Positions 15,049-48,086 of a stretch of 64,000 nt of DNA are shown here, piece after piece; the first letter of the stretch is position 1, and each line of letters begins with the position of its first letter. The stretch is from a virus (lineage: Duplodnaviria > Caudoviricetes). The position numbers and the translations under genes are program-made. Location: positions 42,382 to 106,381 of the IMG/VR virus record IMGVR_UViG_3300037249_000541. One strand, written 5' to 3'. The notes beneath the pieces are model-generated. The model did not search any database. It saw only the letters and a list, made by a program, of their open reading frames with translations, and was not told the origin of the DNA.

Positions 15049-15069
15049 TTTTATTATGTTTTTAGTTTG

Positions 15070-15143
15070 TACTGAGATTAGGACTTGAACCTAAATAAAC
15101 AAGAGCCACAATCTTGTGCTTTGCCAATTAAGCTATCTCAGCC
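15070..15143 (-). tRNA. tRNA-His(GTG)
   Basis: Cloverleaf; CAAGA-TTGTGGC-TCTTG; G-1 present. Confidence 0.9.
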
Positions 15144-15147
15144 TTTG

Positions 15148-15220
15148 TCTGGGTGGCAAGGCTCGAACTTGCGACCACTTGCTCCCAAAGCAAGCATACT
15201 ACCTACTGTACTACACCCAG
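15148..15220 (-). tRNA. tRNA-Pro(TGG)
   Basis: CTTGC-TTTGGGA-GCAAG; TTCGAG T-loop. Confidence 0.92.
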
Positions 15221-15226
15221 ATTATA

Positions 15227-15439
15227 TTATTGCTCACCGTTTTCTGCATTGCTTATAAATTGTTCTAAAGCTTTATCAGCCTTATCTAATTCCATTAATA
15301 AAGCATGAACTTTAATTAGGTGTTTAATAGATTTTATTTCCTCCTCAAGTGATTCTATTTTACACCATACTTCACATATTGCTATTAGCATTGTTATGAG
15401 CAATACTACTGTTAATGTTATTCCAATTTCTAACCACAT
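15227..15439 (-). CDS. small membrane protein
   Basis: N-terminal TM helix plus coiled coil. Confidence 0.55.
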   Translation of the reverse strand: MWLEIGITLTVVLLITMLIAICEVWCKIESLEEEIKSIKHLIKVHALLMELDKADKALEQFISNAENGEQ

Positions 15440-15440
15440 T

Positions 15441-15716
15441 TTATTTTAGTTTTATAGCGTCTTTACAAAAAGTACTTGCCTTTTCAATATCAGTATTTTC
15501 TATTTTACTTATATCTACTTGTACAACATTGCCGATAGGAGCATACCATTTCTTATACCATGCTCTAAAGAATTTTAATTCTTCAAGCCAAAATCTTAGC
15601 TGTTGATGTTCTTTCGCACATTGAGTGCAACCTTCACTCTTTTCTATACAATGTTGTATAGCCTCATCTAAGGTCATTAGAGTATTAGGTGCTGTATTAC
15701 ATAATGTTTCTTCCAT
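15441..15716 (-). CDS. hypothetical protein
   Basis: MTLDEAI.HC...C..CA.EH.QL..WL.ELK family motif; start moved to 15716 because the longer ORF overlaps tRNA-Ser. Confidence 0.65.
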   Translation of the reverse strand: MEETLCNTAPNTLMTLDEAIQHCIEKSEGCTQCAKEHQQLRFWLEELKFFRAWYKKWYAPIGNVVQVDISKIENTDIEKASTFCKDAIKLK

Positions 15717-15734
15717 AGTATTTTTTATTGTTAG

Positions 15735-15821
15735 CGGAGAGTGTAGGACTCGAACCCACAGACCACTCATCGCAGTCAACGGTTTTCAAAACCGTCGCAT
15801 TTACCATTCTGCCAACTCTCC
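15735..15821 (-). tRNA. tRNA-Ser(TGA)
   Basis: ACGGT-TTTGAAA-ACCGT, long variable arm. Confidence 0.92.
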
Positions 15822-15824
15822 AAG

Positions 15825-15897
15825 TGGAGAAGGTAGGTACTGCCCCTACTCCTATGGATTTTCAGTCCACCGCAATGACTTCATCTGCCACTTCTCC
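15825..15897 (-). tRNA. tRNA-Phe(GAA), atypical T-loop GGCAGTA
   Basis: GTGGA-CTGAAAA-TCCAT; acceptor GGAGAAG/CTTCTCC. Confidence 0.8.
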
Positions 15898-16243
15898 CAT
15901 CAATAATTCCACTTTGAAGCAAATCAAAATATGTACCTCTTTCTAATCTTATACCATGAAACTCTCCATAATCTTCTGTATCTGGTCTTTTAATCTTTGT
16001 CTTTAGTATCAGATACTTCCCATAAGTTTCTTCATCTTTTAACTCAGCATCAAATTCTATTGTAGGATATTTGTTCCTAATGTGCATTGGTTGAGTTTTC
16101 AAATAATCATTATATGAATCAAACATTGCGGCAACATCTCTTAATATAGCTATTGTAGAGTCAGCTCCTCTCTCATAAACAAAGCAAGGAACTTTTCTTT
16201 GCATTGTTATATCGTCTCCACTATATCTACTTTCTTTGTCCAT
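15881..16243 (-). CDS. hypothetical protein
   Basis: ORF; stop codon lies inside tRNA-Phe. Confidence 0.55.
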   Translation of the reverse strand: MDKESRYSGDDITMQRKVPCFVYERGADSTIAILRDVAAMFDSYNDYLKTQPMHIRNKYPTIEFDAELKDEETYGKYLILKTKIKRPDTEDYGEFHGIRLERGTYFDLLQSGIIDGRSGR

Positions 16244-16265
16244 ATTTCATTTTGTTTTTGATTAG

Positions 16266-16337
16266 AGCCTTCTGTTGGAATCGAACCAACGTTTGATGAT
16301 TACAAGTCAACGGTAATGACCATTATACTAAGAAGGC
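16266..16337 (-). tRNA. tRNA-Thr(TGT)
   Basis: GTTGA-CTTGTAA-TCATC. Confidence 0.88.
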
Positions 16338-16846
16338 AACATATCTAAGTAATCTTCATATTCTTCATATAATTCTTCTTCAAGTTTCTTTCTTATCTCA
16401 TCTTCCGACATATACTTAGATTCTTCTGGCTTATATTGTATGCTTCTTATTTTCTGCCATTCAATATCTATTTTTTCTTTTTCTTTTCTTATATTTTCCT
16501 TTTCTTTCTCTATATAGTCTTTATATACTTCTAAGTCAGAAGTTAGATTTATTATTTTATGTTTATGCTCTTCAAGCAATTCTTTGTATGTTGTCAAGTT
16601 GTTGTTAATTTTAATCCAATTGTCAACAGAAACATCTGTATGCTTGCCGTTAAACAAGATTATTAACTTGTTATTTATGAATTTAAATTCCAAATGTATC
16701 TTTGGAAATGGAATGTCATTTTCTTTTTGAGCATCAACGAATCTGTTATAATTTTGGATGATTGTCATTATATTCATCATAACCAACATTATAACAGGTT
16801 TGTCTTGCTCTCTGATGTCGCTTCTATTTATTAGATTGAACTCCAT
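16328..16846 (-). CDS. hypothetical protein
   Basis: ORF; stop codon lies inside tRNA-Thr. Confidence 0.6.
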   Translation of the reverse strand: MEFNLINRSDIREQDKPVIMLVMMNIMTIIQNYNRFVDAQKENDIPFPKIHLEFKFINNKLIILFNGKHTDVSVDNWIKINNNLTTYKELLEEHKHKIINLTSDLEVYKDYIEKEKENIRKEKEKIDIEWQKIRSIQYKPEESKYMSEDEIRKKLEEELYEEYEDYLDMLPS

Positions 16847-16865
16847 ATTGTTTGTTTTTTTTTAG

Positions 16866-16950
16866 TGGGAGAAGTAGGACTCGAACCTACTGTGTTTCTT
16901 TGTAACGGTTTTACAGACCGCCGCCACTCCACCATCGTAGCCGCTCTCCC
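16866..16950 (-). tRNA. tRNA-Tyr(GTA)
   Basis: GCGGT-CTGTAAA-ACCGT, long variable arm. Confidence 0.9.
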
Positions 16951-16955
16951 AATCC

Positions 16956-17276
16956 TTATAGCTTTATCCCTTCCTCTTTAATTCTTTTGTAAAGTATTGA
17001 TTTGTAGTCTCTCATTATTTGACGTTGCTTATAAAGATTTCCAAACTTTGATTTACCTACATATTCAAGTTCTTTTTTATTTACTGCTTCTATAAAAGCT
17101 TCAAGCGAAGATAATTTTGATGACAGTTCGTTATATTCTCTTACAAGTCTGTCTTGCCAAGTAGTAGCAGGTGAAGATGGAATTGGTTTTACTTTTTTAA
17201 TTAAATCGTCCAATATAGTTTCTAAGTTTGAAACTCTTTTATGTAACGCTTCAATACACATTAATTCTGTAAGCAT
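16956..17276 (-). CDS. crAss001_48-like protein
   Basis: W.DRL..EY.EL..KL..L..FI...L..Q...M..Y..IL..RI. Confidence 0.6.
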   Translation of the reverse strand: MLTELMCIEALHKRVSNLETILDDLIKKVKPIPSSPATTWQDRLVREYNELSSKLSSLEAFIEAVNKKELEYVGKSKFGNLYKQRQIMRDYKSILYKRIKEEGIKL

Positions 17277-17306
17277 AATATTAAGTTTTATAAGTTTTAA
17301 TAGTCG

Positions 17307-17378
17307 TAGCCTCTATTGGAATCGAACCAATATCAAAAGATTAGAAGTCTTCTATTCTATCCGTTGAACTAAGGGGCC
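17307..17378 (-). tRNA. tRNA-Arg(TCT)
   Basis: GAAGA-CTTCTAA-TCTTT. Confidence 0.9.
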
Positions 17379-17383
17379 ATTAG

Positions 17384-17457
17384 TAGGAGCAGTAGGGCTT
17401 GAACCTACGACCGCCAAGGTATAAGCTTGGAACTCTAACCAACTGAGTTATGCTCCT
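17384..17457 (-). tRNA. tRNA-Ile(TAT)
   Basis: CCAAG-CTTATAC-CTTGG; full cloverleaf. Confidence 0.85.
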
Positions 17458-17541
17458 ATTGGGATGCCTTTTTTAACCAGAGGCATCAGAACTGACGATA
17501 CATTTAAAATTTGCAATTATGTATAAATAATCAAAAAAAAG

Positions 17542-17612
17542 TAGCGGATAGCGGACTCGAACCGCTGTGCCTTGGTTATGAGCCAAGTGAGTAACCTCTA
17601 CTCTAATCCGCA
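17542..17612 (-). tRNA. tRNA-Met(CAT), initiator-like
   Basis: CTTGG-CTCATAA-CCAAG; 1:72 mismatch. Confidence 0.85.
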
Positions 17613-17616
17613 GTGA

Positions 17617-17704
17617 GAGAAATAGAGGAATCGAACCTCTCGAAACTCTAAGAACACCAGCAAGCTGGTCTGTCCCTCATTGAGTAACGCCATCTTTATT
17701 TCTC
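17617..17704 (-). ncRNA. tRNA-like RNA without D-stem or anticodon loop
   Basis: Acceptor GAGAAAT/ATTTCTC, T-arm AGAGG-TTCGATT-CCTCT, central interrupted hairpin capped by CCAG-CTTG-CTGG. Confidence 0.6.
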
Positions 17705-17709
17705 ATTTG

Positions 17710-17780
17710 CGGAGAAGCAAGGAATCGAACCTCGATTAACTGGTTAACAGCCAGCCGCTCTGCCGTTGAGCTACATCTCC
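17710..17780 (-). tRNA. tRNA-Asn(GTT)
   Basis: GCTGG-CTGTTAA-CCAGT. Confidence 0.9.
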
Positions 17781-17948
17781 ATAAAAGCTCCTGCTATAAA
17801 TGAACAAAAAAAATTAAATATTACATTTAAGGTTCTACATTAATATATATAAAAGTAACAAACACACCACCCAAACTAACTTATTAAGCAGGAGCCATAA
17901 TATAAAAACTTACAAAAAACAAAAAAAACAAAAAAAAACTTCAAAAAG

Positions 17949-18030
17949 TACCCTAAGTAGGACTCGAACCTACACACCTCTCGGCACTTGCTCCTAAGGC
18001 AAGCGTGGCTGCCAGTTACACCATTAGGGC
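17949..18030 (-). tRNA. tRNA-Leu(TAG)
   Basis: CTTGC-CTTAGGA-GCAAG, variable arm. Confidence 0.92.
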
Positions 18031-18033
18031 ATT

Positions 18034-18101
18034 TGTTAGATGCTTATAACGTGCTACCGTTACACTAAGGAGTCGAACCTATCTTTTACATTCATCTAAC
18101 A
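18034..18101 (-). ncRNA. circularly permuted tRNA-elbow mimic
   Basis: Terminal stem TGTTAGATG/CATCTAACA encloses a T-arm (AGG-TTCGACT-CCT) followed by a D-arm (GTG-TAACGGTAG-CAC). Confidence 0.7.
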
Positions 18102-18104
18102 TTG

Positions 18105-18190
18105 TACTACTGACAAGAATCGAACTTGCAAGAACATTTCTGTTCGGTGGATTTTAAGTCCACTGCGTTTACCAGTTTCGCCACAGTAGC
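18105..18190 (-). tRNA. tRNA-Leu(TAA)
   Basis: GTGGA-CTTAAAA-TCCAC, variable arm. Confidence 0.92.
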
Positions 18191-18226
18191 ATCTGCATTT
18201 ACAATATGTCAAAGAACTATTGTTTG

Positions 18227-18298
18227 TTGCCCAACAAGGATTTGAACCCTGACCACAAGAACCAAAATCTTGGGTGCTAACCGTTACACCATTAGGCA
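18227..18298 (-). tRNA. tRNA-Gln(TTG)
   Basis: CAAGA-TTTTGGT-TCTTG. Confidence 0.9.
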
Positions 18299-39901: not shown

Positions 39902-40031
39902 TGACACTTTACATTCTCTTTTTTCTCCATTGGACCAGTGTGGAATTGAACCACAGACGCAAGGATTTCAACCCTTCGCTCTACCTGCTGAGCTACCAGC
40001 CCCTAAAAGAGAATTATAATTGTAAGTGTCA
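39902..40031 (-). ncRNA. motif RNA A: shared helix enclosing a tRNA-Phe-like cloverleaf (6-nt anticodon loop)
   Basis: TGACACTTACA...TGTAAAGTGTCA flanks GGGGCTGGTAGCTCAG...AAGGG-TTGAAA-TCCTT...GTTCAATT. Confidence 0.8.
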
Positions 40032-40035
40032 TTTG

Positions 40036-40094
40036 TAGTGTAGCCAGGACTCGAACCTGGACGTGTTCCAACACACGTTCCTATATCTACACTA
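40036..40094 (-). ncRNA. D-armless tRNA-like element
   Basis: TAGTGTAG/CTACACTA acceptor, ACGTGT/ACACGT hairpin, CCAGG-TTCGAGT-CCTGG. Confidence 0.7.
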
Positions 40095-40735
40095 ACTCTT
40101 ACTACGTTGTCCTGGGCTAAAGCCCAACTCGGAGACATTCAGAGTGCCTTTTACGACGGCCCACGCCTTCGTGATAGAAGGATTGACGTGAGATTACGGA
40201 GAATCTCCTTGTCGTGGCTGTTGGAGGAACTGCCCCTCCTTGGTCTTGTTATCCCACAGCCTGTTGAATATGTTTCAATCCAACCCAGTCACCTCATTAG
40301 ATTTGATAATTCACCGTATAAAGTCATATGCTATTGATTACTCGCGGATTGACGTTTCAAACACATAAGTGAATACTCCGTACTGCCCTTTCTTCATCAC
40401 ATAAGTATTCTTGATATACAGCTCCTTATCGGCGTACAGGAGATGACTCATTTTCGCCCTTAGTCTTTCCCAAGTGTCAGTAGTCTTCCCCACTTCCAGA
40501 TTTACCATAAAAATCCCGCAAGATTTAAACAGTTGCAAGTTTACTCTTGGGTCTTACGTTGACCACACCGACCTGCTTCTCGGCAGGCTCATATCCATTT
40601 CGTCAGGCCACGGCACCAACTTGGCGTTTAACTATACTCCTTGCGACAATCTAACTGCGTCCAGTTAGCATTGGAAGTGTGTCGAAGTTCGCAACCTGGG
40701 TGTTCCCGTGCTGAGATAGCTGGAGAAAGAAATAT
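40095..40735 (-). ncRNA. candidate large structured RNA (about 640 nt)
   Basis: No credible ORF; GC-richer; many hairpins (CTAACTG/CAGTTAG, CCTGC/GCAGG, GAGATT/AATCTC, CCTTC/GAAGG, TGGGCT/AGCCCA). Confidence 0.55.
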
Positions 40736-40737
40736 CT

Positions 40738-41142
40738 CTACAAAAGAAAATCTTTATATACTTGCTTTAAATACCTTTCTTTTATTGCTTCTGCTTTTAC
40801 GTAAGCTGTTTCGTATTTTGCATAACCATTAGCATTGGTCTTGTAAAATCTTGCTTGACCATATGTTCGTTCGTCATACCATCTGGTTCCATAACTTTTA
40901 TATCCATATTCTCTGTCTGGTGAGAATATGATATTCCATAGAAGTATGAGAAATGTTCCATCGTCATTAATAATGATATCACTAAGCAATCCCATCCTTT
41001 TTACAGAGTCATCTTCTTCACCGAATCTTACAATAACAGGTTTCCCAAAAAACGGTTTAAGCTTATCTCTTGGTATTTCGATTGGTTTTTTCTTGCTCAT
41101 CTTGTTGAGTTTTTTGGATTGTTTGAATTGCTCTTGCTCCAC
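40738..41142 (-). CDS. hypothetical protein (likely start about 41100)
   Basis: ORF. Confidence 0.55.
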   Translation of the reverse strand: MEQEQFKQSKKLNKMSKKKPIEIPRDKLKPFFGKPVIVRFGEEDDSVKRMGLLSDIIINDDGTFLILLWNIIFSPDREYGYKSYGTRWYDERTYGQARFYKTNANGYAKYETAYVKAEAIKERYLKQVYKDFLL

Positions 41143-41371
41143 GACGGAGTAAGAAATCTCCTATTTGCATCTTTATACAATGCCAACGCATTTTACGTAA
41201 CTCTGTATCATACATCATATACCAGAGGTCGCATCCGTCGCATTTCTTTGTAGTTTCGAGATTGCAATCTATATCGCTTAATTGTTTAAGCTTCATAGAT
41301 TCAATCTCTTCAAACCTTTTGAATTCTTCTTCTATTTTATTCATAGCATTAAAATGTTAATTAATAAAATT

Positions 41372-41442
41372 AGACACTTGATTTTTTGGCAAAAAGCATA
41401 ATGGTACCGATAATCAGTCGGGAATCTTTTTTGTAAGTGTCT
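41372..41442 (-). ncRNA. motif RNA B with Ile(GAT)-like anticodon stem-loop
   Basis: AGACACTTACAA...CCGA-CTGATTA-TCGG...AAGTGTCT. Confidence 0.75.
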
Positions 41443-41446
41443 TTGT

Positions 41447-41580
41447 TGGAGTATTTGAAAAAAATTCATTGAGTCCAGACTAACCTGTTGTCGAGCGGCA
41501 CACTACCACGTGATGATTTACCGTAGCTGTTTCAGACATGGTGCGTCGCCTGGGATTTGAACCCAGATTTTTCAAACTCA
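41447..41580 (-). ncRNA. circularly permuted tRNA-like RNA
   Basis: Order is T-arm, GCGACGC-ACCA, spacer, GTGCCGC, D-arm (GAC-AACAGGTTA-GTC), closed by TTTGAAAAA/TTTTTCAAA. Confidence 0.65.
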
Positions 41581-41583
41581 TTG

Positions 41584-41705
41584 TGCAGCGAGCAGGAGTT
41601 GAACCTGCGTTTTCGGATTGGAATATTCTAACGATGTTTTTGTGAGTAAGTAATCTTACTTAAATGTTATAGTGCCGACGTTCTAACCAACTAAACTATC
41701 GCTGT
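41584..41705 (-). ncRNA. motif RNA C: tRNA (Gly TCC-like) with the shared helix inserted in the anticodon arm
   Basis: Intact acceptor, D and T arms; insert contains AAGTAA-GA-TTACTT-ACTCACAAAA. Confidence 0.75.
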
Positions 41706-41711
41706 GTGTAT

Positions 41712-41768
41712 TGTCACTTATTGGCAAAATTAGATAACAATTTGTTTTTTACTAATTTGTAAGTGACA
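41712..41768 (-). ncRNA. motif RNA D (minimal)
   Basis: TGTCACTTACAA...TAAGTGACA. Confidence 0.75.
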
Positions 41769-41837
41769 TCGAAAACATTAATAACCTAAACGTAATAAAA
41801 ACATAAATCCATGTTACAGCATCAAGATTACAAATTG

Positions 41838-41910
41838 TGTGTCAAGAGGGAATCGAACCCTCGACCCACGCATTAAAAGTGCGTTGCTCTACCAACTGAG
41901 CTATTGACAC
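41838..41910 (-). tRNA. tRNA-Lys(TTT)
   Basis: ACGCA-CTTTTAA-TGCGT. Confidence 0.93.
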
Positions 41911-41913
41911 ATA

Positions 41914-42047
41914 AAATGCAAATACTCCATATAGGTTAACTGTTCCATTCGACACGCCTCTTCCGAACATTCCAGGTCTGAGTCATACGGTTTAACAGCC
42001 ATGAGATAGAGATAGGTGTGCGTCATCTCAGGCGTGTATTTGCATTT
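41914..42047 (-). ncRNA. unknown structured RNA
   Basis: 12-bp terminal stem AAATGCAAATAC/GTATTTGCATTT; inner ACACGCCT/AGGCGTGT and TGAGAT/ATCTCA. Confidence 0.55.
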
Positions 42048-42059
42048 GTTTTTTTTATT

Positions 42060-42122
42060 TGATACTTATGTCAACGGGTTAGATTAAAAGTCTAATGTTT
42101 TTTATTTGTTTTGTAAGTATCA
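42060..42122 (-). ncRNA. motif RNA E with Lys(TTT) anticodon stem-loop
   Basis: TGATACTTACAA...TTAGA-CTTTTAA-TCTAA...AAGTATCA. Confidence 0.8.
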
Positions 42123-42142
42123 TCGTTCCATGAATGACGCGA

Positions 42143-42505
42143 TTAAACAACCGCGTTTTCTTTCTCTTTGTCAAAACATTTGTTCTGCAATATTTGACGG
42201 AAATATTCTTCTGCATCACCAAAAGATTCAAAATCTCTTTCGATGCAAGATTTATATTCTTTGCCTACCTTTAATAGTTTAAAGGTTTGGCTTAGTCCAT
42301 AAATAACACAGTTAGTTACCGTAAAATCAAATATTACTTTACCATTATCATCTTTTCGTGAAATAATAGAAATCTTTGCCATCATTAATGGTATGTAATG
42401 GCTATGTTCGTATTTCCTGAAATTCCACGAATTGATTCGTGTTAATGCAGAAATAAATGCTAACTTTAAAAATTGATAACTATTTGTCATTTCCCTTATA
42501 ATCAT
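42143..42505 (-). CDS. hypothetical protein
   Basis: ORF between RNA genes. Confidence 0.5.
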   Translation of the reverse strand: MIIREMTNSYQFLKLAFISALTRINSWNFRKYEHSHYIPLMMAKISIISRKDDNGKVIFDFTVTNCVIYGLSQTFKLLKVGKEYKSCIERDFESFGDAEEYFRQILQNKCFDKEKENAVV

Positions 42506-42509
42506 TAAA

Positions 42510-42565
42510 TGTCACTTGGGGTATTTTGATTAGCAGTCAAATCCATTTTGAATTTGTAAGTGACA
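42510..42565 (-). ncRNA. motif RNA F with Ser(GCT) anticodon stem-loop
   Basis: TGTCACTTACAA...TTTGA-CTGCTAA-TCAAA...AAGTGACA. Confidence 0.8.
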
Positions 42566-42573
42566 GTGTTTTG

Positions 42574-42686
42574 CGGACAGGATAGGACTCGAACCTATGA
42601 CATCGGCATTAACAGTGCAATTCGTTAGTTTTGTAAGTAACTAATGCTACTTGTGATACGCGCTCTACCAACTGAGCTACCTGTCC
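42574..42686 (-). ncRNA. motif RNA G: tRNA-Asn(GTT) interrupted by a 40-nt motif insert (42619-42658)
   Basis: Deleting the insert restores CGGCA-CTGTTAA-TGCCG; insert contains AAGTAGC-ATTA-GTTACTT-ACAAAA. Confidence 0.85.
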
Positions 42687-42746
42687 ATAATGACGCACCG
42701 ACCATGGAAGCTTTTACGGTGCGTCTAAGAGCAACATACTAATATT

Positions 42747-43274
42747 CTAATTCATAGATATTGAAAAATTTGACACTCTGACCATCGTGCTACGTATTCC
42801 ATCTACATCGTATTCTAACACTTCAATTTTACCATTCTCTGACAATGAACCATCCCAGTTAACCCAATCAACGTTTTTGATTTCATAGGTTTCTCCGTCT
42901 TCATCACATTTTAAAGTAAAACTTGGACGTGTCTTCGCACCTGCAATAAATGATTTCCAGGCCGTTATCAATATAGCTGCTTGGAAATCATTATTTACAT
43001 CTACCAATGGATAGTATTGAGTTAAATATTTTGCACATTCGTCATATAGCGAACATTTGGGCTCAAATGCTTTATATCTCAATACACTTATCATCCTGCT
43101 GAAGCAAATATCAATAATTTCATCTATTGTTAATTCTTCATTTAACTTTTGCCTGCCAATAACATATTGTTTGACAAACTCTTTAAGTGTTAAATACGAT
43201 TTTAACTCTTCACTTAATTCTTCAATATCTATCTCTTCCTTTTTCTTTGTTTCTTCTGTTTCTTCTTTCTCCAT
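42747..43274 (-). CDS. hypothetical protein
   Basis: 175-aa ORF. Confidence 0.6.
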   Translation of the reverse strand: MEKEETEETKKKEEIDIEELSEELKSYLTLKEFVKQYVIGRQKLNEELTIDEIIDICFSRMISVLRYKAFEPKCSLYDECAKYLTQYYPLVDVNNDFQAAILITAWKSFIAGAKTRPSFTLKCDEDGETYEIKNVDWVNWDGSLSENGKIEVLEYDVDGIRSTMVRVSNFSISMN

Positions 43275-43292
43275 TTTGTTATGAAATTTTAT

Positions 43293-43369
43293 TGTCGCTT
43301 GTGCTTGCTATCGCGGTTTTCGGCTGCGAGGTTTGCGTAACTCAATGTGTTATTGTTTTGTAAGCGACA
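43293..43369 (-). ncRNA. motif RNA H
   Basis: TGTCGCTTACAA...AAGCGACA (compensatory change); inner TCGC..CCGAAAA..GCGA hairpin. Confidence 0.75.
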
Positions 43370-43401
43370 TGAACTAAACCGTATATGAGATAAAACAAAA
43401 G

Positions 43402-43524
43402 TGGCGGAGGCTGGACTCGAACCAGCAACTTTCAAATTATCAGTTTGACTATCTTAACCTTAAAAGTATTGTTTTTGTAAGTAACATATGTTACTCAACT
43501 TTGTTTTTGTTGATATACTCCGCC
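43402..43524 (-). ncRNA. motif RNA I: tRNA-Ile(GAT) with about 50-nt motif insert in the D-loop
   Basis: GGCGGAG/CTCCGCC, TCAAA-CTGATAA-TTTGA; D-loop insert GAGTAAC-ATAT-GTTACTT-ACAAAA. Confidence 0.85.
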
Positions 43525-43531
43525 ATATAAT

Positions 43532-43633
43532 TGACACTTCTTGTAGATTTTGGATTTGAACCAAAGAACTTATGATTATTAATCATACGCTATAAACCAA
43601 CTTAGCTAATCTAAGATTATTTTGTAAGTGTCA
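43532..43633 (-). ncRNA. motif RNA J: helix enclosing a tRNA body with AAT anticodon
   Basis: TGACACTTACAA...D-arm, TATGA-TTAATAA-TCATA, T-arm...AAGTGTCA; shortened acceptor stem. Confidence 0.8.
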
Positions 43634-43640
43634 TTTTTTG

Positions 43641-43717
43641 CGGTGCTTACGGGAATCGAACCCGTCTGAATCTTCTGCGTGACAGGCAGACGGCCACACC
43701 AAGCAGCCCCAAGCACC
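43641..43717 (-). tRNA. tRNA-Asp(GTC)
   Basis: TCTGC-CTGTCAC-GCAGA. Confidence 0.9.
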
Positions 43718-43722
43718 ATAAT

Positions 43723-43816
43723 AGATACTTATTTGCTTTATGGAATCGAACCATATTTTGATGTCTTTCGACATCATAACAGAACCAATTGTAAACAATT
43801 GTTTTTGTAAGTATCT
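43723..43816 (-). ncRNA. motif RNA K: helix enclosing D/T arms with a GAAA-tetraloop hairpin in place of the anticodon arm
   Basis: AGATACTTACAA...TGATGTC-GAAA-GACATCA, TATGG-TTCGATT-CCATA...AAGTATCT. Confidence 0.8.
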
Positions 43817-43861
43817 TTCTATTCACCTAATTACTATGAAAAATTACAAACATTCCAATTG

Positions 43862-43936
43862 TAGTGGGTACGGGATTTGAACCCGTGACTTCAGCGTGAA
43901 AGGCTGATGACTTAAACCTGGCTTGTCGAACCCACC
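43862..43936 (-). tRNA. tRNA-Glu(TTC)
   Basis: TCAGC-CTTTCAC-GCTGA. Confidence 0.92.
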
Positions 43937-44004
43937 ATCCAAAGTATGCGTTATCACAACGCATACAAGATAATTTAAATTAATTATTATTTGACAAAAA
44001 AACG

Positions 44005-44114
44005 TGGGCGTGGAAGGAATCGAACCTTCTGATTTAATTGATGTGCCATTAATCATATTTTTTATTTGTGTGTATTGTAAGTGACAGAGTATCACTTGTT
44101 CTCTGTTCACGCCC
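44005..44114 (-). ncRNA. motif RNA L: tRNA shell with the motif hairpin replacing the D-arm
   Basis: GGGCGTG/CACGCCC, AAGTGATA-CTC-TGTCACTT-ACAA, GAAGG-TTCGATT-CCTTC. Confidence 0.8.
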
Positions 44115-44124
44115 ATATAAAAAT

Positions 44125-44224
44125 TGATACTTGTTTTATTGCTATTGGAATCGAACCAATGATACAAGGATTTTCAGTCCTTTGCTCTACCTCTGAGCTA
44201 AGCTTTTTGGTCTTGTAAGTATCA
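44125..44224 (-). ncRNA. motif RNA M: helix enclosing a tRNA-Phe(GAA) body lacking a full acceptor stem
   Basis: TGATACTTACAA...AAGGA-CTGAAAA-TCCTT...AAGTATCA. Confidence 0.85.
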
Positions 44225-44228
44225 TTTG

Positions 44229-44344
44229 TCGAGGAGGTCAGACTCGAACTGACGACCCTTGGAACCCCACGAATGTGATGTTCTTGTGAGTAACTCAAGT
44301 TACTTAATTCTAAACCAATGCTCTACCAGCTGAGCTACTCCTCG
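44229..44344 (-). ncRNA. motif RNA N: tRNA-Pro with about 40-nt motif insert in the anticodon arm
   Basis: CGAGGAG/CTCCTCG; insert AAGTAAC-TTGA-GTTACTC-ACAAG; TGGGG at the anticodon position. Confidence 0.8.
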
Positions 44345-44350
44345 ATAAAA

Positions 44351-44513
44351 AACAAGATTTTCTTTACTGCCTAATTCGTCTGGCACTTTCATTACGTCCG
44401 CATTATTTGTGCCAGTAATTGCCTCATGCAGTCGTTTTGTTGCGCGCATTTGACTGCCCTATTGGTTCTGCAAGGTTCATCTTTCTACTGCTATGAACGA
44501 GGAAAATCTTGTT
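44351..44513 (-). ncRNA. unknown multi-branch RNA
   Basis: 12-bp terminal stem AACAAGATTTTC/GAAAATCTTGTT; arms GTTCAT/ATGAAC, GCAGTC/GACTGC, CTGGCAC/GTGCCAG. Confidence 0.6.
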
Positions 44514-44516
44514 AAG

Positions 44517-44706
44517 TGCGCTCGTCAGGACTTAAACCTGAATCTACAAATTTACTATAATTATACCATAATATATCTTGACTAATCCCGTGAGCCATTG
44601 TTGATGCGCACACGACCGAGTTCCACGGCTATTTACATTCTTAGGCAATATATTATGATATTAAATTATAATTAATCAATTGCTTTAATTATTAAGCTAC
44701 AAGCGC
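44517..44706 (-). ncRNA. tRNA shell with an about 130-nt rod replacing the anticodon arm
   Basis: GCGCTTG/CGAGCGC acceptor, D-arm, TCAGG-TTTAAGT-CCTGA; rod CATAATATAT/ATATATTATG, CCGTG/CACGG. Confidence 0.65.
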
Positions 44707-44711
44707 GTGTT

Positions 44712-44777
44712 GGTTACTTATTTGTCAAATCCCTAATTTGATGCTTCAAAGCAAGCTATTTGAGTTTGTAAGTAACC
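44712..44777 (-). ncRNA. motif RNA O (first element of the array)
   Basis: GGTTACTTACAA...TAAGTAACC. Confidence 0.75.
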
Positions 44778-44781
44778 GCTG

Positions 44782-44825
44782 CAAAGATAACAACCCACAG
44801 CGAATCACGCAAGGGTTGTTATCTT
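44782..44825 (-). promoter_or_regulatory. Bacteroidetes-type promoter for the RNA array, within an inverted repeat
   Basis: TTG-N20-TATCTTTG ending 5 nt before element O; AAGATAACAACCC/GGGTTGTTATCTT palindrome. Confidence 0.6.
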
Positions 44826-44840
44826 AATGTTTGTTAAAAG

Positions 44841-46700
44841 TTAGATTACGTTGTTCCTGACAACATCGTAACGGTCGCTACGGAAGAACGACAGAAGAGC
44901 CGCATAAGAGTCGAACTGTTCCATATCCCTGAAATTGGTGAGGAACATCTCTATCTGTGAAGGGTTTGCTGGAATGTACATCAGATTTGGCACGGTTGTA
45001 ATCTGTGCATCTACCGATACCTGATTATTGATGTCCATAGCAATGATGAATGGTTTGAAGCCAAGAACTTCCTCTGCTTTTGAAAGCAAGTTCACAACTG
45101 AATCCAATCTATTCCTTGAAGAATTCCATTCGCCGTCAGAGATTATTGTCCAGATTGGATATCTCGCAAATTCATCTTTTACAGCATCTCCTTTGTCAAG
45201 AAGGTCTGAGATATGTTCAACGATTGCTTCGATATTAGTCCAACCCCAGTCAGCTTTCGCTCTCAAGCAGCAATACAGGTTTTTGTAGTTTTCCAAAAAC
45301 GATTTTGTTGTGTCAACAAGCGGAAGGTCAACTTTCTTGATGTTTGGCATCATCAATTGATTTCTAACTTTCTTCATGCCATCAACTTGCCTGTCTATTG
45401 TTGTTACAGGAATGACGTTGTTTCCGAACATGTACACTACGTTCCTTGCCAATGGGTCAGGGTTCTTGTAGAGGCATACAGAAGCAATGAAAGATGCGAA
45501 GTTGAATGCCATGCAACCATAATTGCTCATTGAGCCTGAACAATCTATGAATACCAAAGAGTTGTAGGGCAGATTCACTTTCTCCTGTACGAATGCTTCA
45601 ATTTTGAGTTCGTCCACATTAGCCGAACAAATCTGTTCGTACAACTCCTTGAAGTTTGTTGCGCCAGTTGTTACCTTAGCTGCTTTCTTCGCTTCCCTTA
45701 AAGCTGCTTGCAACTCAGGTGTTATAGGCTCACCATTCTGTACCTGCTCTTTGATGTCGCGTACTTTCTGTTGTGCTTCCTCTTTAAACTTCTCCCATTC
45801 CTCGAACCAAGTTTTCAGATTAGGCCATTTGAGGTCATCACTATCCTTCTTCTTGGAATAGAAGATTTTGTTCTTTACGCGGAATCTTGCTGATGCAGGC
45901 AAGTTGTTGAGCCATTCCTTGAATTGCATCTGGTCAAACTCTGCAATCTTTCCTGTAGAGAAGAGTACGCTTTCGAGTTCGCCGTTGTACTCACTGCGCC
46001 ATTTACGATAACCTACGAAGTTGACTTTTTCTTCGTTGTTTCCAACATAGCGATACTCCCAACCCATTCTCTGTGAAAGCATCTTGAGAAATTCTCCTTT
46101 TGCTTTCATATTGGCTTTTGTCTCTGGCAACATACGAGTGTGTCCTTGACGAACACCAAACCTTGGAGGTGTCAAGAATTTCGCAACGCAAGTCTTGGCG
46201 AATGGATTGTTGCCACGAACAATTTTCTCCACGAATTCGCAGAGAGATTCTCTGTACCAACCCTCGTTGAACAAACACCTATTGCTTACGATTGTCGGGT
46301 TTTTTGCTTTGACTTTTGCCGTCTGTACGCGAGACACAAACAACGAGTCCATGCACTGATACTCGCTGATTATGCCTTTGCCGAGGAATACTTTGAACTG
46401 TTCTCTTGCGTTTTTCATCATCCAGTCAAGTACAACGTTGAATCCTTTGCGGTTGCTGTTGCCACCATTGTCACGCTGTTTACGACCGAATATGTGATGC
46501 TGACGGCCTGTGATGTCGCCAATACCAATTAGAATTGAATAGAATAACTGCAATTTCTCCTTGCTTGTTGCTTCAGAGTATGCAGCTTCTATCATGTCAA
46601 CGGTGATTGTATTGCCCATATTTTGGAATAACATCATCATGCCGTCGCATCCCTGAAAGGGATTTTCCGATGTTTTGTTGAATGTTACTATTGATGCCAT
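44841..46700 (-). CDS. TROVE/DUF2828-like helical domain plus vWA domain protein (Ro60-like)
   Basis: MIDAS DCSGSM, T in WTN, ISDGEW; N-terminal GDI..R...GG...R..F and AKF..P motifs; start at ATG 46700 after an A-rich leader. Confidence 0.75.
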   Translation of the reverse strand: MASIVTFNKTSENPFQGCDGMMMLFQNMGNTITVDMIEAAYSEATSKEKLQLFYSILIGIGDITGRQHHIFGRKQRDNGGNSNRKGFNVVLDWMMKNAREQFKVFLGKGIISEYQCMDSLFVSRVQTAKVKAKNPTIVSNRCLFNEGWYRESLCEFVEKIVRGNNPFAKTCVAKFLTPPRFGVRQGHTRMLPETKANMKAKGEFLKMLSQRMGWEYRYVGNNEEKVNFVGYRKWRSEYNGELESVLFSTGKIAEFDQMQFKEWLNNLPASARFRVKNKIFYSKKKDSDDLKWPNLKTWFEEWEKFKEEAQQKVRDIKEQVQNGEPITPELQAALREAKKAAKVTTGATNFKELYEQICSANVDELKIEAFVQEKVNLPYNSLVFIDCSGSMSNYGCMAFNFASFIASVCLYKNPDPLARNVVYMFGNNVIPVTTIDRQVDGMKKVRNQLMMPNIKKVDLPLVDTTKSFLENYKNLYCCLRAKADWGWTNIEAIVEHISDLLDKGDAVKDEFARYPIWTIISDGEWNSSRNRLDSVVNLLSKAEEVLGFKPFIIAMDINNQVSVDAQITTVPNLMYIPANPSQIEMFLTNFRDMEQFDSYAALLSFFRSDRYDVVRNNVI

Positions 46701-46739
46701 TTTGATTATTTTTAATATGTTTTCGTGTTGTAAGTAACA
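46683..46739 (-). promoter_or_regulatory. motif helix enclosing the vWA gene start codon (putative autoregulatory operator)
   Basis: TGTTACTTACAA...ATGGCATCAAT-AGTAACA. Confidence 0.7.
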
Positions 46740-46787
46740 ATTCTCGTGGGAAGACTCCACACGAGAGTTGCAATGAGAGAGTTAGAA

Positions 46788-47279
46788 CTACTTGTTGTCA
46801 GTAGCAGGGGGTTCAGTTGTTGGTGCAGGTTCTGTTACAGGTTCGTCAGTTGAAAGAAGCTCTTTCTTCCTTGCTTCCAATGCAGCTACTCTCTGCTCTG
46901 GAGTCATCGAAGCATCTTTTATTGCTTCAATCTCTTTGTCGATTGCTGCAACTGCTTGTGCGTTCTTGTCGTCTTCTGCCTTCCATAGACGGTAGCCATA
47001 GATGTAGTAGACGAGGTCTTTCTGACGTTCAATCCTGTCGATTCGCTCTTTCTCTTCGTCAGACTGAGACCAAGGGTCGCCGTCCTGAGCGTCCTGGAAT
47101 TTCTTCTTCAGACCATCGTAGATTTTCTTCAACGAGCCTACATTGAGTTCATTCATAAGCTGCCATGGGTTGTACCTCTGACCAAGGTTTGTAACGATTG
47201 TTTCGCCAGCCACTGTGAAGGCGGCAATCAGTGTGAACAAGGAAGCCTTGTCACTTGTAGTGAAGTTTACTTTTGCCAT
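46788..47279 (-). CDS. coiled-coil protein between RNA ligase and vWA genes
   Basis: L...L....L..IY..L.K...V..I...MTPEQ; resembles 39384-39839. Confidence 0.65.
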   Translation of the reverse strand: MAKVNFTTSDKASLFTLIAAFTVAGETIVTNLGQRYNPWQLMNELNVGSLKKIYDGLKKKFQDAQDGDPWSQSDEEKERIDRIERQKDLVYYIYGYRLWKAEDDKNAQAVAAIDKEIEAIKDASMTPEQRVAALEARKKELLSTDEPVTEPAPTTEPPATDNK

Positions 47280-47303: not shown

Positions 47304-48086
47304 TTACTTAGCCGCTTTCAGTTTCCTAAAATCGACTGTTTTGATTTTTGTTATCACTCTGTTGCCCATTCTGTCGTAGATTGGTACTTCTGGGCGCAAT
47401 ACCAATCCTTCTGCATCAAGGTTCTTATCTTCGGCTATTGCTGACTTGAAGCCAATAGATACAACATCTATTGCTTCTTCTATTGTCATTTTGCCATAGA
47501 ATGGAACTGTTGGTGCATTGAGTTTCTCGGCAATATCTTTCGTCGAATCCCACTCCAAGTACAAGTTATTGACCTTAGTGTCGAATACAATGAATGATAC
47601 GCCGTTACGAATGTAACCACCTCCGCTTTGTATTCCTGCTCCATATCCTTCTCCATAGATTGTCCATTTTGTAGGAATATCATCGATTGTTTCCCACTTA
47701 TGGTCTTTCCATTCCTCGTAAGGAATATAAGACTTCAACCCCCAAGCTGCTAATACTTTTTCAGTGGGATAGTTGTCTTCAAGGTGCTTCCTCAATGTTG
47801 GTGGAATCTGTGCGTTATCTGTTTTACCCTTGTAGTCAACTTTGAAATTAACTCCAAGAATCTGACGTATACCTTCTTTGTCTGCTTCTGAATAGACAAT
47901 CTCGATGGTTACTTCTAATCGAATATTTGTGCCATCTATCTTCTCAAAGGCAAGCCAGATGCAATTTTTAAGGTACTCGACAATTTTATCGGAGTAGTCT
48001 CCAACAATTATCAAGTCCTTTGAATCACGCTTAAAGATTGTGTTAATCTTTTGATACGTGTTCTCTGAACGTTTTTGTTTGCTCAT
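47304..48086 (-). CDS. ATP-dependent RNA ligase (Rnl2-like adenylation domain)
   Basis: EKIDGTN, YGE, F..FD, EGLV, K.K nucleotidyltransferase motifs; no OB domain. Confidence 0.88.
   Translation of the reverse strand: MSKQKRSENTYQKINTIFKRDSKDLIIVGDYSDKIVEYLKNCIWLAFEKIDGTNIRLEVTIEIVYSEADKEGIRQILGVNFKVDYKGKTDNAQIPPTLRKHLEDNYPTEKVLAAWGLKSYIPYEEWKDHKWETIDDIPTKWTIYGEGYGAGIQSGGGYIRNGVSFIVFDTKVNNLYLEWDSTKDIAEKLNAPTVPFYGKMTIEEAIDVVSIGFKSAIAEDKNLDAEGLVLRPEVPIYDRMGNRVITKIKTVDFRKLKAAK

What the first reader, a model, noticed from the sequence alone, without database searches (positions are those of the whole stretch)
46683..46739. The shared helix sequesters the vWA gene's own start codon
Seen: the only copy I found outside the array is in the vWA leader: TGTTACT-TACAA...AAAATAATCAAA-ATG-GCA-TCA-AT-AGTAACA. 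The 3' strand is formed by codons 4-6, so the ATG and the A-rich initiation region lie inside the helix. Inference: this is translational autorepression, with free protein binding its own mRNA once the small RNAs are saturated. It is the best internal evidence that this protein binds the motif.
Basis: partly seen in the sequence, partly recalled or inferred. Interest (0 to 1): 0.88.

Follow-up and report, generated by a model that had tools for sequence, protein, structure and literature searches.

The report
RNA tag clamps phage gene's start
In a crAss-like gut phage, the short RNA helix-plus-ACAA tag that marks about fifteen tRNA-like small RNAs also brackets the start codon of the neighbouring, loosely Ro60-like protein gene, and this is conserved in related phages, so it probably lets that gene's translation be switched off, but nothing yet shows which protein binds it.

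Summary
On the minus strand, TGTTACT (46739-46733) plus unpaired ACAA pairs with AGTAACA (46689-46683, codons 4-6). The ATG (46700-46698) lies in the 43-nt loop between the strands; it is not itself paired.

This is a copy of the module (8-bp helix WGNYRCUU/AAGYRNCW, then ACAA) that flanks about 15 units at 39902-44777.

- 40 of 46 homologous loci (protein 40-50% identical) carry the 5' motif upstream of a conserved start.
- The matching 3' strand sits at six or more different places, from -22 to +52.
- Where it lies on Ser-Asn codons, those codons are AGT-AAC in 19 of 19 distinct leaders, against 26% and 35% usage elsewhere in the same genes.
- Only this gene has its ATG inside a unit.
- Three crAss-like genomes without the gene have no module cluster.

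The helix is weak (-5.7 kcal/mol), so any control would need a bound factor. The protein is a basic helical-repeat domain plus a vWA/MIDAS domain, only loosely Ro60-like, and has no TROVE match.

My reading is a conserved translational operator (about 0.65) that is probably autogenous (about 0.4). Rivals are RNA processing or another binder. This scan had already noted the tag on this gene's leader in another phage genome.

The parts
46733..46739 (-). 5' strand of the leader helix (TGTTACT), at -39..-33 relative to the ATG
   Evidence: Sequence. Paired in the MFE and centroid folds. The same NGTTACT(T) strand lies upstream of the start in 40 of 46 homologous loci.
46728..46732 (-). U plus unpaired ACAA, the invariant single-stranded part of the module. 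The U pairs with A in array units but faces U here.
   Evidence: ACAA follows the 5' strand in every unit of the array and in every homologous leader.
46690..46727 (-). Loop of the leader unit: A-rich initiation region, ATG (46700-46698) and codons 2-4
   Evidence: The start is confirmed by conserved N-termini in 44 loci.
46683..46689 (-). 3' strand of the leader helix (AGTAACA), at +12..+18, covering codons 4-6 (Ile-Val-Thr)
   Evidence: In relatives the same strand sits at -22..-10, +8, +21..+27, +31 or +52.
44841..46700 (-). Gene for the 619-aa protein: a basic helical-repeat N-domain plus a C-terminal vWA domain with a MIDAS DxSxS motif. Loosely Ro60/DUF2828-like.
39902..44777 (-). Array of about 15 module-tagged units: tRNA-like bodies, isolated stem-loops, tRNA genes with inserted module hairpins, and two small ORFs
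46742..46766 (-). G+C-rich hairpin 2 nt upstream of the leader's 5' strand (46739), between the 163-aa gene and the module
   Evidence: MFE fold. Two compensatory changes in L009.
46788..47279 (-). 163-aa protein of no known family. It is the conserved upstream neighbour (147 aa in most relatives) of the vWA gene.
   Evidence: Present just upstream of the vWA gene in nearly all loci whose upstream flank was held; not found in L046 and L048, and only a 32-residue fragment in L019.
47304..48086 (-). RNA ligase (PF09414), found only in this phage and its 88%-identical relative

Best explanation
The 57-nt stretch 46739-46683 (minus strand) is a genuine, selected copy of the RNA module that tags the phage's tRNA-derived small RNAs. 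The module is a 7-8-bp helix with a conserved inner end (ACUU/AAGU), followed by unpaired ACAA.

In the mRNA of the helical-repeat/vWA protein, the two strands bracket the translation initiation region: 5' strand at -39..-33, 3' strand at +12..+18.

The helix is too weak to matter by itself. When the factor that recognises the module clamps it, the A-rich, Shine-Dalgarno-less initiation region and the first codons are held in a closed, protein-capped loop, and the 30S subunit cannot load.

The most likely factor is the encoded protein itself. That would be negative autogenous control by mimicry of its own RNA ligands, and it would tie protein synthesis to the pool of tagged RNAs.

Shown: the element, its conservation, the relocation of its 3' strand, the synonymous-site constraint, and its linkage to the gene.
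Inferred: which factor binds, repression, and titration by the small RNAs.
For: (1) Module identity. It has the same strand pattern WGNYRCUU plus ACAA as the 10 array units that have perfect 8-bp helices, in which five helix positions vary with full compensation.

(2) Conservation. 40 of 46 loci have NGTTACT[TC]ACAA within 120 nt upstream of the conserved ATG. 25 of those 40 have an exact 7-mer complement before ATG+60, against 0.45 expected.

(3) The 3' strand was re-created in different places:
- +12 in this window and L009 (Ile-Val-Thr codons)
- +21..+27 in the main clade (Ser-Asn codons)
- +31 in L027 and L046
- +52 in L025, L029 and L051 (Cys-Ser-Asn codons)
- +8 in L043, and with a G-U pair in L035 and L053, where the 5' strand changed to UUUACUU to match AAGUAAAA or AAGUAGAA
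- -22..-10 in L037, L040, L041, L050 and L052
.

(4) Synonymous constraint. The Ser-Asn codons under the 3' strand are AGT-AAC in 19 of 19 distinct leaders, against 26% and 35% usage elsewhere in the same genes. The dipeptide also drifts in position relative to the NPF motif.

(5) Loci without the 5' motif also lack AGTAAC in the early coding sequence.

(6) Only this gene has its ATG inside a unit. Other ORFs sit 4-38 nt behind a unit.

(7) RNAalifold finds this helix as the only consensus structure of the main-clade leaders. Single-sequence MFE folds contain it.

(8) Link between protein and module:
- Arrays start 20-60 nt after the stop codon of the vWA gene in nearly all loci with downstream flank.
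- A deeply divergent homologue (N-domain E 7e-25) has an array with a variant helix, again followed by ACAA.
- cr116_1, IAS virus and crAss001 lack the gene and have no cluster.
- Non-coding hits to an exact module pattern in IMG/VR fall in contigs that carry the gene.

(9) Protein features: N-domain pI 9.3-9.6 with 17 invariant basic residues; full-length fold hits to Ro60; and matches to DUF2828+DUF7788/vWA models at TM 0.52/0.60-0.64.
Against: - There is no binding or expression data.
- The start codon is not paired. In the main clade the 3' strand begins at +21..+27, at or beyond the edge of a 30S footprint, and at +52 in one clade. Occlusion therefore has to work by enclosure, not by direct pairing.
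- Within the main clade the helix is conserved in sequence without significant covariation (covariation score reached by 50 of 500 shuffles; the outer pair is UA 6, CG 3, UG 3, unpaired 6).
- 6 of 46 loci have no leader copy, and neither does the distant homologue L108, which uses an AAGGAGG ribosome-binding site.
- The protein has no TROVE or DUF2828 HMM match. Its N-domain on its own matches only generic HEAT/ARM repeats (best Z 6.7).
- The module is not the canonical Ro60 site GNCGAAN0-1G (PMC4201824).
- A conserved 147-163-aa neighbour is an equally linked candidate binder.
Confidence: 0.42

Rival explanations
1. The module is a processing or maturation signal. A nuclease, from the host or recruited by the phage RNP, cuts at the module helices to release tRNAs, small RNAs and mRNAs from a long precursor. 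The leader copy makes the vWA mRNA a substrate, so cleavage removes or separates its start codon. This is feedback by decay rather than by occlusion.
For: - Units are packed head to tail on one strand directly behind the gene, and they flank tRNA bodies.
- Small ORFs in and after the arrays start 4-38 nt behind a unit's 3' strand, as expected if unit boundaries define mRNA 5' ends.
- No Bacteroides-type promoter is evident between the 163-aa gene and the vWA gene, which suggests co-transcription.
- RNA ligase or polynucleotide kinase-phosphatase genes accompany some family members.
Against: - An 8-bp helix is too short for RNase III, and no nuclease gene is linked to the cassette.
- In modules inserted as hairpins inside tRNA genes, the conserved end faces the RNA body. 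That fits a binding handle better than a release site.
- Repeated re-creation of the 3' strand inside the coding sequence would be a costly way just to define an mRNA end.
Confidence: 0.22
2. The leader is an operator for a different module-binding factor. Candidates are the conserved 147-163-aa protein encoded immediately upstream, or a host protein. That would be cross-regulation rather than autoregulation.
For: - The small protein is as tightly linked as the vWA gene, being found just upstream of it in nearly all loci.
- The RNA-binding activity of the vWA protein is inferred only from a loose fold resemblance.
Against: - The small protein has no recognisable RNA-binding family.
- L046 and L048 lack it yet keep a leader or nearby module.
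- The distant locus L108 keeps the vWA homologue and the ACAA modules.
Confidence: 0.15
3. The element is structural or a stabiliser only. The leader unit is simply 'unit zero' of the array, or a 5' stabilising helix, with no effect on translation of the gene.
For: - In five loci the whole unit lies upstream of the ATG, like units in front of other ORFs.
- The helix is thermodynamically weak.
Against: - The synonymous-site constraint and the relocation of the 3' strand into the first 20 codons, in six or more arrangements, argue that enclosing the start region is itself selected.
- Even the fully upstream copies end 2-14 nt before the ATG.
Confidence: 0.1
4. The element acts at the DNA level. 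Either CTTACA is a -35-like promoter box, or the units are mobile cassettes with inverted-repeat ends.
For: A weak sigma-70-type match (9 of 12 positions) uses CTTACA with AATAAT at 46734-46705.
Against: - Compensatory changes in the two strands require pairing in a single strand.
- A start site about 35 nt downstream would fall inside the tRNA bodies.
- Bacteroidota do not use this promoter consensus.
- There are no target-site duplications, and no integrase or transposase gene in the cassette.
- All units lie on the strand of the gene.
Confidence: 0.03

Closest known systems
Ro60/Rsr with YrlA/YrlB Y RNAs of bacteria and phages (PMC4201824; Thermus phage phiLo Ro60, PMC12135203; Rfam RF02553)
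   Same: - The protein combines a helical-repeat domain with a C-terminal vWA/MIDAS domain.
- Its gene lies next to genes for small RNAs whose ends pair into a stem.
- Many of those RNAs carry tRNA-like bodies.
- RNA-repair genes occur nearby in some members.
   Different: - There is no TROVE HMM match.
- The N-domain on its own is not specifically TROVE-like.
- The RNA signature is ACUU/AAGU plus ACAA, not GNCGAAN0-1G or CGAA.
- There are up to about 15 tagged RNAs instead of 1-4.
- The tag also occurs as a hairpin inserted in tRNA genes.
- A tag copy spans the protein's own start codon, which I did not find reported for Ro60.
Autogenous translational operators that mimic the protein's RNA ligand: E. 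coli thrS leader (tRNA-Thr anticodon-arm mimic), ribosomal proteins S8, L1, L20 and S15, and T4 gp32 and RegA (from established knowledge)
   Same: A copy of the RNA motif that the protein is presumed to recognise elsewhere is placed over the initiation region of its own mRNA. Feedback would set in when the primary ligands are saturated.
   Different: - The helix here is long-range: it closes a 43-60-nt loop that holds the whole initiation region, rather than forming a local hairpin or pseudoknot.
- The host lineage initiates without a Shine-Dalgarno sequence.
- Neither binding nor repression has been shown.
MS2/Qbeta/PP7 coat-protein operator hairpin over the replicase start codon (from established knowledge)
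   Same: A phage RNA-binding protein would repress a phage gene by stabilising an intrinsically weak helix that includes the initiation region.
   Different: - In those phages the AUG is part of a 7-bp local hairpin.
- The target there is another gene, not the binder's own gene.
- Those are RNA phages.

Membership tests
Ro60/TROVE - Y RNA system | TROVE domain detectable by profile (Pfam PF05731) | tested here: not met
   - hmmscan of P0001, of 26 N-domains and of 10 distant members gives no TROVE or DUF2828 hit.
- A six-frame search of the phage genome with PF05731 finds nothing at E <= 10, while the controls D. radiodurans and B. thetaiotaomicron do match.
- A profile search of 1.84 billion representatives finds only 156 clusters, a closed family.
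Ro60/TROVE - Y RNA system | Ring of HEAT-like repeats joined to a C-terminal vWA domain with MIDAS | tested here: inconclusive
   - The vWA/MIDAS part is clear: D386, S388 and S390 are invariant, with vWA hits at Z 10-12.
- The full-length model's top 11 Foldseek hits are all Ro60/TROVE entries (E 2e-6 to 2.5e-4, but TM only about 0.3). VIA gives Z 13.2 (9kop, 343 residues aligned) and 12.6 (1yvp_B, 386 aligned).
- ESM Atlas models of DUF2828+DUF7788/vWA proteins match at TM 0.52/0.60-0.64 over about 410 residues.
- Atlas feature search scores DUF2828 at 0.92 and TROVE at 0.89.
- The N-domain folded alone matches only generic ARM/HEAT/PUF repeats (Foldseek E >= 0.011; best VIA Z 6.7).
Ro60/TROVE - Y RNA system | Adjacent genes for small RNAs whose 5' and 3' ends form a stem, at least one with a tRNA-like domain | tested here: met
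   Eleven units are closed by a 7-8-bp terminal helix, and several enclose tRNA-like bodies with degenerate acceptor stems. Arrays follow the gene in nearly all homologous loci with downstream flank.
Ro60/TROVE - Y RNA system | Conserved Ro-binding sequence GNCGAAN0-1G (vertebrate GGUCCGA) in the stem; a match to Rfam YrlA | tested here: not met
   The motif occurs in 1 of 11 units, and there inside the payload, not in the stem. The best YrlA match is 20.1 bits against a gathering score of 69, E 1.3.
Autogenous translational operator by RNA mimicry | A copy of the RNA motif found on the presumed primary ligands overlaps the initiation region of the regulator's own mRNA, and is conserved | tested here: met
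Autogenous translational operator by RNA mimicry | The encoded protein binds that motif and binding lowers translation | not testable with these tools

The most novel reading that the evidence does not exclude
The helix-plus-ACAA tag is the recognition handle of an undescribed phage ribonucleoprotein system in crAss-like and related phages. Its protein is a helical-repeat/vWA protein with no sequence tie to TROVE. It loads a whole library of tRNA mimics: whole bodies, isolated anticodon arms and tagged tRNAs. The tag copy over the protein's own start codon forms a titration circuit that matches protein output to the pool of tagged RNAs. The system would serve tRNA protection, tRNA repair or decoying of host anticodon nucleases.
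Probability: 0.25. Interest if true: 0.85.

Novelty: new variant of a known kind. Interest (0 to 1): 0.62.

Why it matters
crAss-like phages are among the most abundant viruses of the human gut, and how they regulate their genes is largely unknown.

A conserved operator-like element in front of this gene gives a simple first experiment for an otherwise opaque system of tagged tRNA mimics: does this protein bind this 57-nt RNA, and does that shut off a reporter? A positive answer would do three things:
- identify the binder of about 15 small RNAs per genome;
- extend Ro60/Y-RNA-type biology to a protein family that sequence profiles miss;
- add an example of translational control by enclosing the initiation region in hosts that initiate without a Shine-Dalgarno sequence.

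If instead the modules are processing sites, the same element shows how the phage's tRNA arrays are matured.

Tried and rejected
- **Promoter reading.** There is a sigma-70-like match through CTTACA. Rejected because the two strands covary and the geometry is wrong for the tRNA-bearing units.
- **Integron attC-like or MITE-like DNA elements.** Rejected: the core sites do not match, there are no recombinase genes or target duplications, and all units lie on one strand.
- **Canonical Y-RNA site and Rfam YrlA.** Absent.
- **CUUACAA or CUCACAA as a tRNA-Val anticodon-loop mimic.** Rejected as a structure, because CUU is paired in every unit.
- **TATAGTTCAAAG upstream of main-clade leaders as a recurrent phage promoter.** It occurs only once per locus. 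The related TAGTTCWAA is at chance level in the window.
- **IMG/VR scan for an exact unit pattern.** It returned 45 stretches. About 30 were chance hits inside coding sequences of about 7 redundant, unrelated contig families without the gene.
- **Covariation within the main clade.** Not significant.
- **TROVE or DUF2828 by HMM.** No hit.
- **N-domain folded alone.** No specific TROVE match.
- **tblastn of the protein against 50,697 GenBank phage records.** No match.
- **Distant homologue loci L107, L110, L112 and L113.** No array or leader copy in the DNA held.
Full report
**What is there**

The window is the right-hand 64 kb of a 106,381-bp viral record with direct terminal repeats. Its terminase is 62% identical to that of uncultured phage cr116_1 and 54% identical to those of IAS virus and Bacteroides phage crAss001. 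It is therefore a Crassvirales/Steigviridae-like phage.

The gene in question runs on the minus strand from the ATG at 46700 to 44841 and encodes 619 aa. Upstream on the same strand lie an RNA ligase (PF09414; 48086-47304) and a 163-aa protein of no known family (47279-46788). Downstream lies a 5-kb stretch rich in tRNA and tRNA-like genes.

- TGTTACT at 46739-46733
- U, then ACAA at 46731-46728
- an A-rich stretch
- ATG at 46700-46698
- AGTAACA at 46689-46683, that is +12..+18, covering codons 4-6

**It is a copy of the array's module, and not chance**

Exact ACTTACAA occurs 14 times in the window. Thirteen of these are on the minus strand within 40020-46735.

I scanned every CT[TC]ACAA site for a partner complementary to the bases just before it:
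- All 16 sites in that interval have a partner of 6-10 bp (14 of them 7 bp or more).
- The 14 sites elsewhere reach 3-7 bp, all scoring 6.5 or less once G-U pairs count half.

Eleven units have the enclosing arrangement: 5' WGNYRCUU, then ACAA, then a payload, then AAGYRNCW 3'. Ten of these helices are perfect 8-mers, and five helix positions vary with full compensation (GAUAC/GUAUC, GACAC/GUGUC, GUCAC/GUGAC, GUCGC/GCGAC, GUUAC/GUAAC). Five more are hairpins (3' strand, short loop, 5' strand, ACAA) inserted into tRNA-like genes.

The leader unit is 57 nt, the size of the small array units (56, 57, 63 and 66 nt). It differs only in that the innermost pair is a U-U mismatch.

The protein has 1,152 relatives at E <= 1e-3, mostly about 50% identical and found on contigs of about 100 kb. 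I fetched 3 loci by identity and 45 from IMG/VR.

The start is conserved. All 44 loci checked begin M-x-x-V-[KE]-[LF]-N...NPF at the equivalent ATG, so the true start does not lie elsewhere.

Counting the window itself, 40 of 46 loci have NGTTACT[TC]ACAA within 120 nt upstream of the ATG. An exact 7-mer complement lies between ACAA and ATG+60 in 25 of those 40, against 0.45 expected from the same loci. Most of the others pair with a G-U pair or with 6 bp.

The position of the 3' strand differs between clades:

| Position of 3' strand | Loci | Note |
|---|---|---|
| +12 | this window, L009 | Ile-Val-Thr codons |
| +21..+27 | main clade | Ser-Asn codons |
| +31 | L027, L046 | |
| +52 | L025, L029, L051 | a Cys-Ser-Asn replaces Leu-Arg-Asn |
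| +8 | L043; L035 and L053 with a G-U pair | the 5' strand itself changed to UUUACUU to match AAGUAAAA or AAGUAGAA |
| -22..-10 | L037, L040, L041, L050, L052 | whole unit lies before the ATG |

Where the 3' strand lies on Ser-Asn, the codons are AGT-AAC in 19 of 19 distinct leaders. Elsewhere in the same genes AGT is 26% of Ser codons and AAC is 35% of Asn codons. The dipeptide also drifts in position relative to the NPF motif.

Loci without the 5' motif (L031, L033, L034, L038, L042, L047) also lack AGTAAC in the early coding sequence.

RNAalifold returns this helix as the only consensus structure of the main-clade leaders.

One caveat. Within the main clade the helix is conserved in sequence, and the covariation score is not beyond shuffles (reached by 50 of 500). 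Only the outer pair varies: UA 6, CG 3, UG 3, unpaired 6. The case for selection on pairing therefore rests on three things: the relocation of the 3' strand, the synonymous-site constraint, and the change of the 5' strand to UUUACUU that matches its new partner at +8.

**What is special about this gene**

Units also stand in front of other ORFs:
- In the window, units end 18, 4 and 27 nt before the ATGs at 43274, 42505 and 41344.
- In other loci, the last unit of an array ends 15-38 nt before the next gene.

Only the vWA gene has its ATG inside a unit, and this holds in nearly every clade. That argues that enclosing the initiation region is itself the selected feature.

**Strength of the helix**

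The MFE folds contain the helix, but it is marginal: -5.72 kcal/mol with z -1.4 for this window, and z between +0.2 and -2.3 in the relatives folded. The ATG is in the loop, not paired. In the main clade the 3' strand starts at or beyond the edge of a 30S footprint.

So any control must come from a factor that clamps the helix and caps the loop. This is also how an operator should behave.

**Who binds?**

Linkage points to the encoded protein:
- Arrays begin 20-60 nt after its stop codon, on its strand, in nearly all loci with downstream flank.
- A very distant homologue (P0209; N-domain E 7e-25; a 94-kb contig that uses an AAGGAGG ribosome-binding site) is followed by an array with a variant helix (YAUGCU), again followed by ACAA. 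One of its units encloses tRNA-Phe.
- cr116_1, IAS virus and crAss001 have no homologue. They carry only 5, 8 and 13 dispersed ACTTACAA copies on both strands, similar to the reversed-pattern control.
- An exact unit pattern scanned across IMG/VR hit non-coding DNA only in contigs that carry the gene. The other hits were coding-sequence coincidences in contigs without it.

What the protein looks like:
- Its N-domain is basic (pI 9.3-9.6, against about 5-6 for the vWA domain) and has 17 invariant Lys, Arg or His residues.
- The full-length AlphaFold model (pLDDT 77) has Ro60/TROVE entries as its top 11 Foldseek hits, including the Ro60 of Thermus phage phiLo. VIA gives Z 13.2 and 12.6 over 343-386 aligned residues, against 10-12 for vWA-only hits.
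- It matches ESM Atlas models of DUF2828+DUF7788/vWA proteins at TM 0.52/0.60-0.64. The Atlas feature search also points to DUF2828 (0.92) and TROVE (0.89).

What weakens that resemblance:
- No HMM finds TROVE or DUF2828.
- The N-domain folded alone (pLDDT 78) matches only generic ARM/HEAT/PUF repeats.
- The RNA signature is not the canonical GNCGAAN0-1G (PMC4201824).

'Loosely Ro60-like' is therefore as far as the evidence goes. The 147-163-aa upstream neighbour is found just upstream of the gene in nearly all loci and cannot be excluded as the binder.

**Mechanism and odds**

- I take it as nearly certain that the leader carries a real, selected module (about 0.9).
- It probably controls expression of this gene (about 0.65).
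- The controller is plausibly the encoded protein, which would make this an autogenous operator built by mimicry of its RNA ligands, as in thrS or the ribosomal-protein operons (about 0.4).

The main rival is that the modules are processing signals and the leader copy subjects the mRNA to the same cleavage. That gives the same feedback logic by a different chemistry. The third option is another binder. Promoter and mobile-element readings are rejected.

**Comparison and novelty**

The closest known system is Ro60/Rsr with Y RNAs, including the phage cases. It shares the architecture and the gene neighbourhood. It differs in the protein family as seen by sequence, in the RNA signature, in the number and kinds of tagged RNAs, and in the leader copy. 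I found no report of Ro60 controlling its own mRNA, nor of this system in crAss-like phages.

As a mechanism it would be a new variant of ligand-mimic translational operators.

This scan had already flagged the same system in other genomes, including a note that the tag sits on the protein's own leader. The tests reported here are my own.

Noticed in passing
window 46742-46766 (minus strand): A G+C-rich hairpin lies 2 nt upstream of the leader's 5' strand. The 88%-identical relative L009 keeps it through two compensatory changes (CTCTCGTG/CACGAGAG becomes CTCTTGTG/CACAAGAG). No U-tract follows. It could be a terminator, a stabiliser or a processing signal between the 163-aa gene and the vWA gene.
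   Followed up: partly
window 43293-43369, 42510-42565 and 41372-41442 (minus strand): Each small ORF inside or after the array starts just behind a unit: ATG 43274 is 18 nt after a unit, ATG 42505 is 4 nt after, and ATG 41344 is 27 nt after. In other loci the last unit of an array ends 15-38 nt before the next gene. Units may double as 5' leader elements of mRNAs.
   Followed up: partly
L108:6940-8100 (distant homologue P0209): Behind a homologue with only remote similarity there is an array with a variant module (helix ending AUGCU, then ACAAAAAC), including a unit that encloses tRNA-Phe. This phage uses an AAGGAGG ribosome-binding site and has no leader copy.
   Followed up: partly
L112:6107-7096 and L107:1039-2295: Other distant family members sit next to a polynucleotide kinase-phosphatase-like gene (PNK3P/AAA_33) or an AAA ATPase. 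The window's phage has an RNA ligase instead. RNA-repair neighbours therefore recur.
   Followed up: no
window 15069-18298: A second cluster of 12 ordinary tRNA genes carries no modules at all. The tag is confined to the cluster behind the vWA gene.
   Followed up: partly
control genomes: Bacteroides thetaiotaomicron, from the likely host genus, has a canonical TROVE protein of its own, distinct from the phage protein.
   Followed up: no
window, module core: CUUACAA and its variant CUCACAA read like 7-nt anticodon loops of tRNA-Val (UAC and CAC). The CUU is paired in every unit, so this is probably coincidence.
   Followed up: partly
L012:6933-6944 and 18 other loci: TATAGTTCAAAG is conserved about 25 nt upstream of the leader's 5' strand in one subclade and occurs once per locus. 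Its function is unknown.
   Followed up: partly
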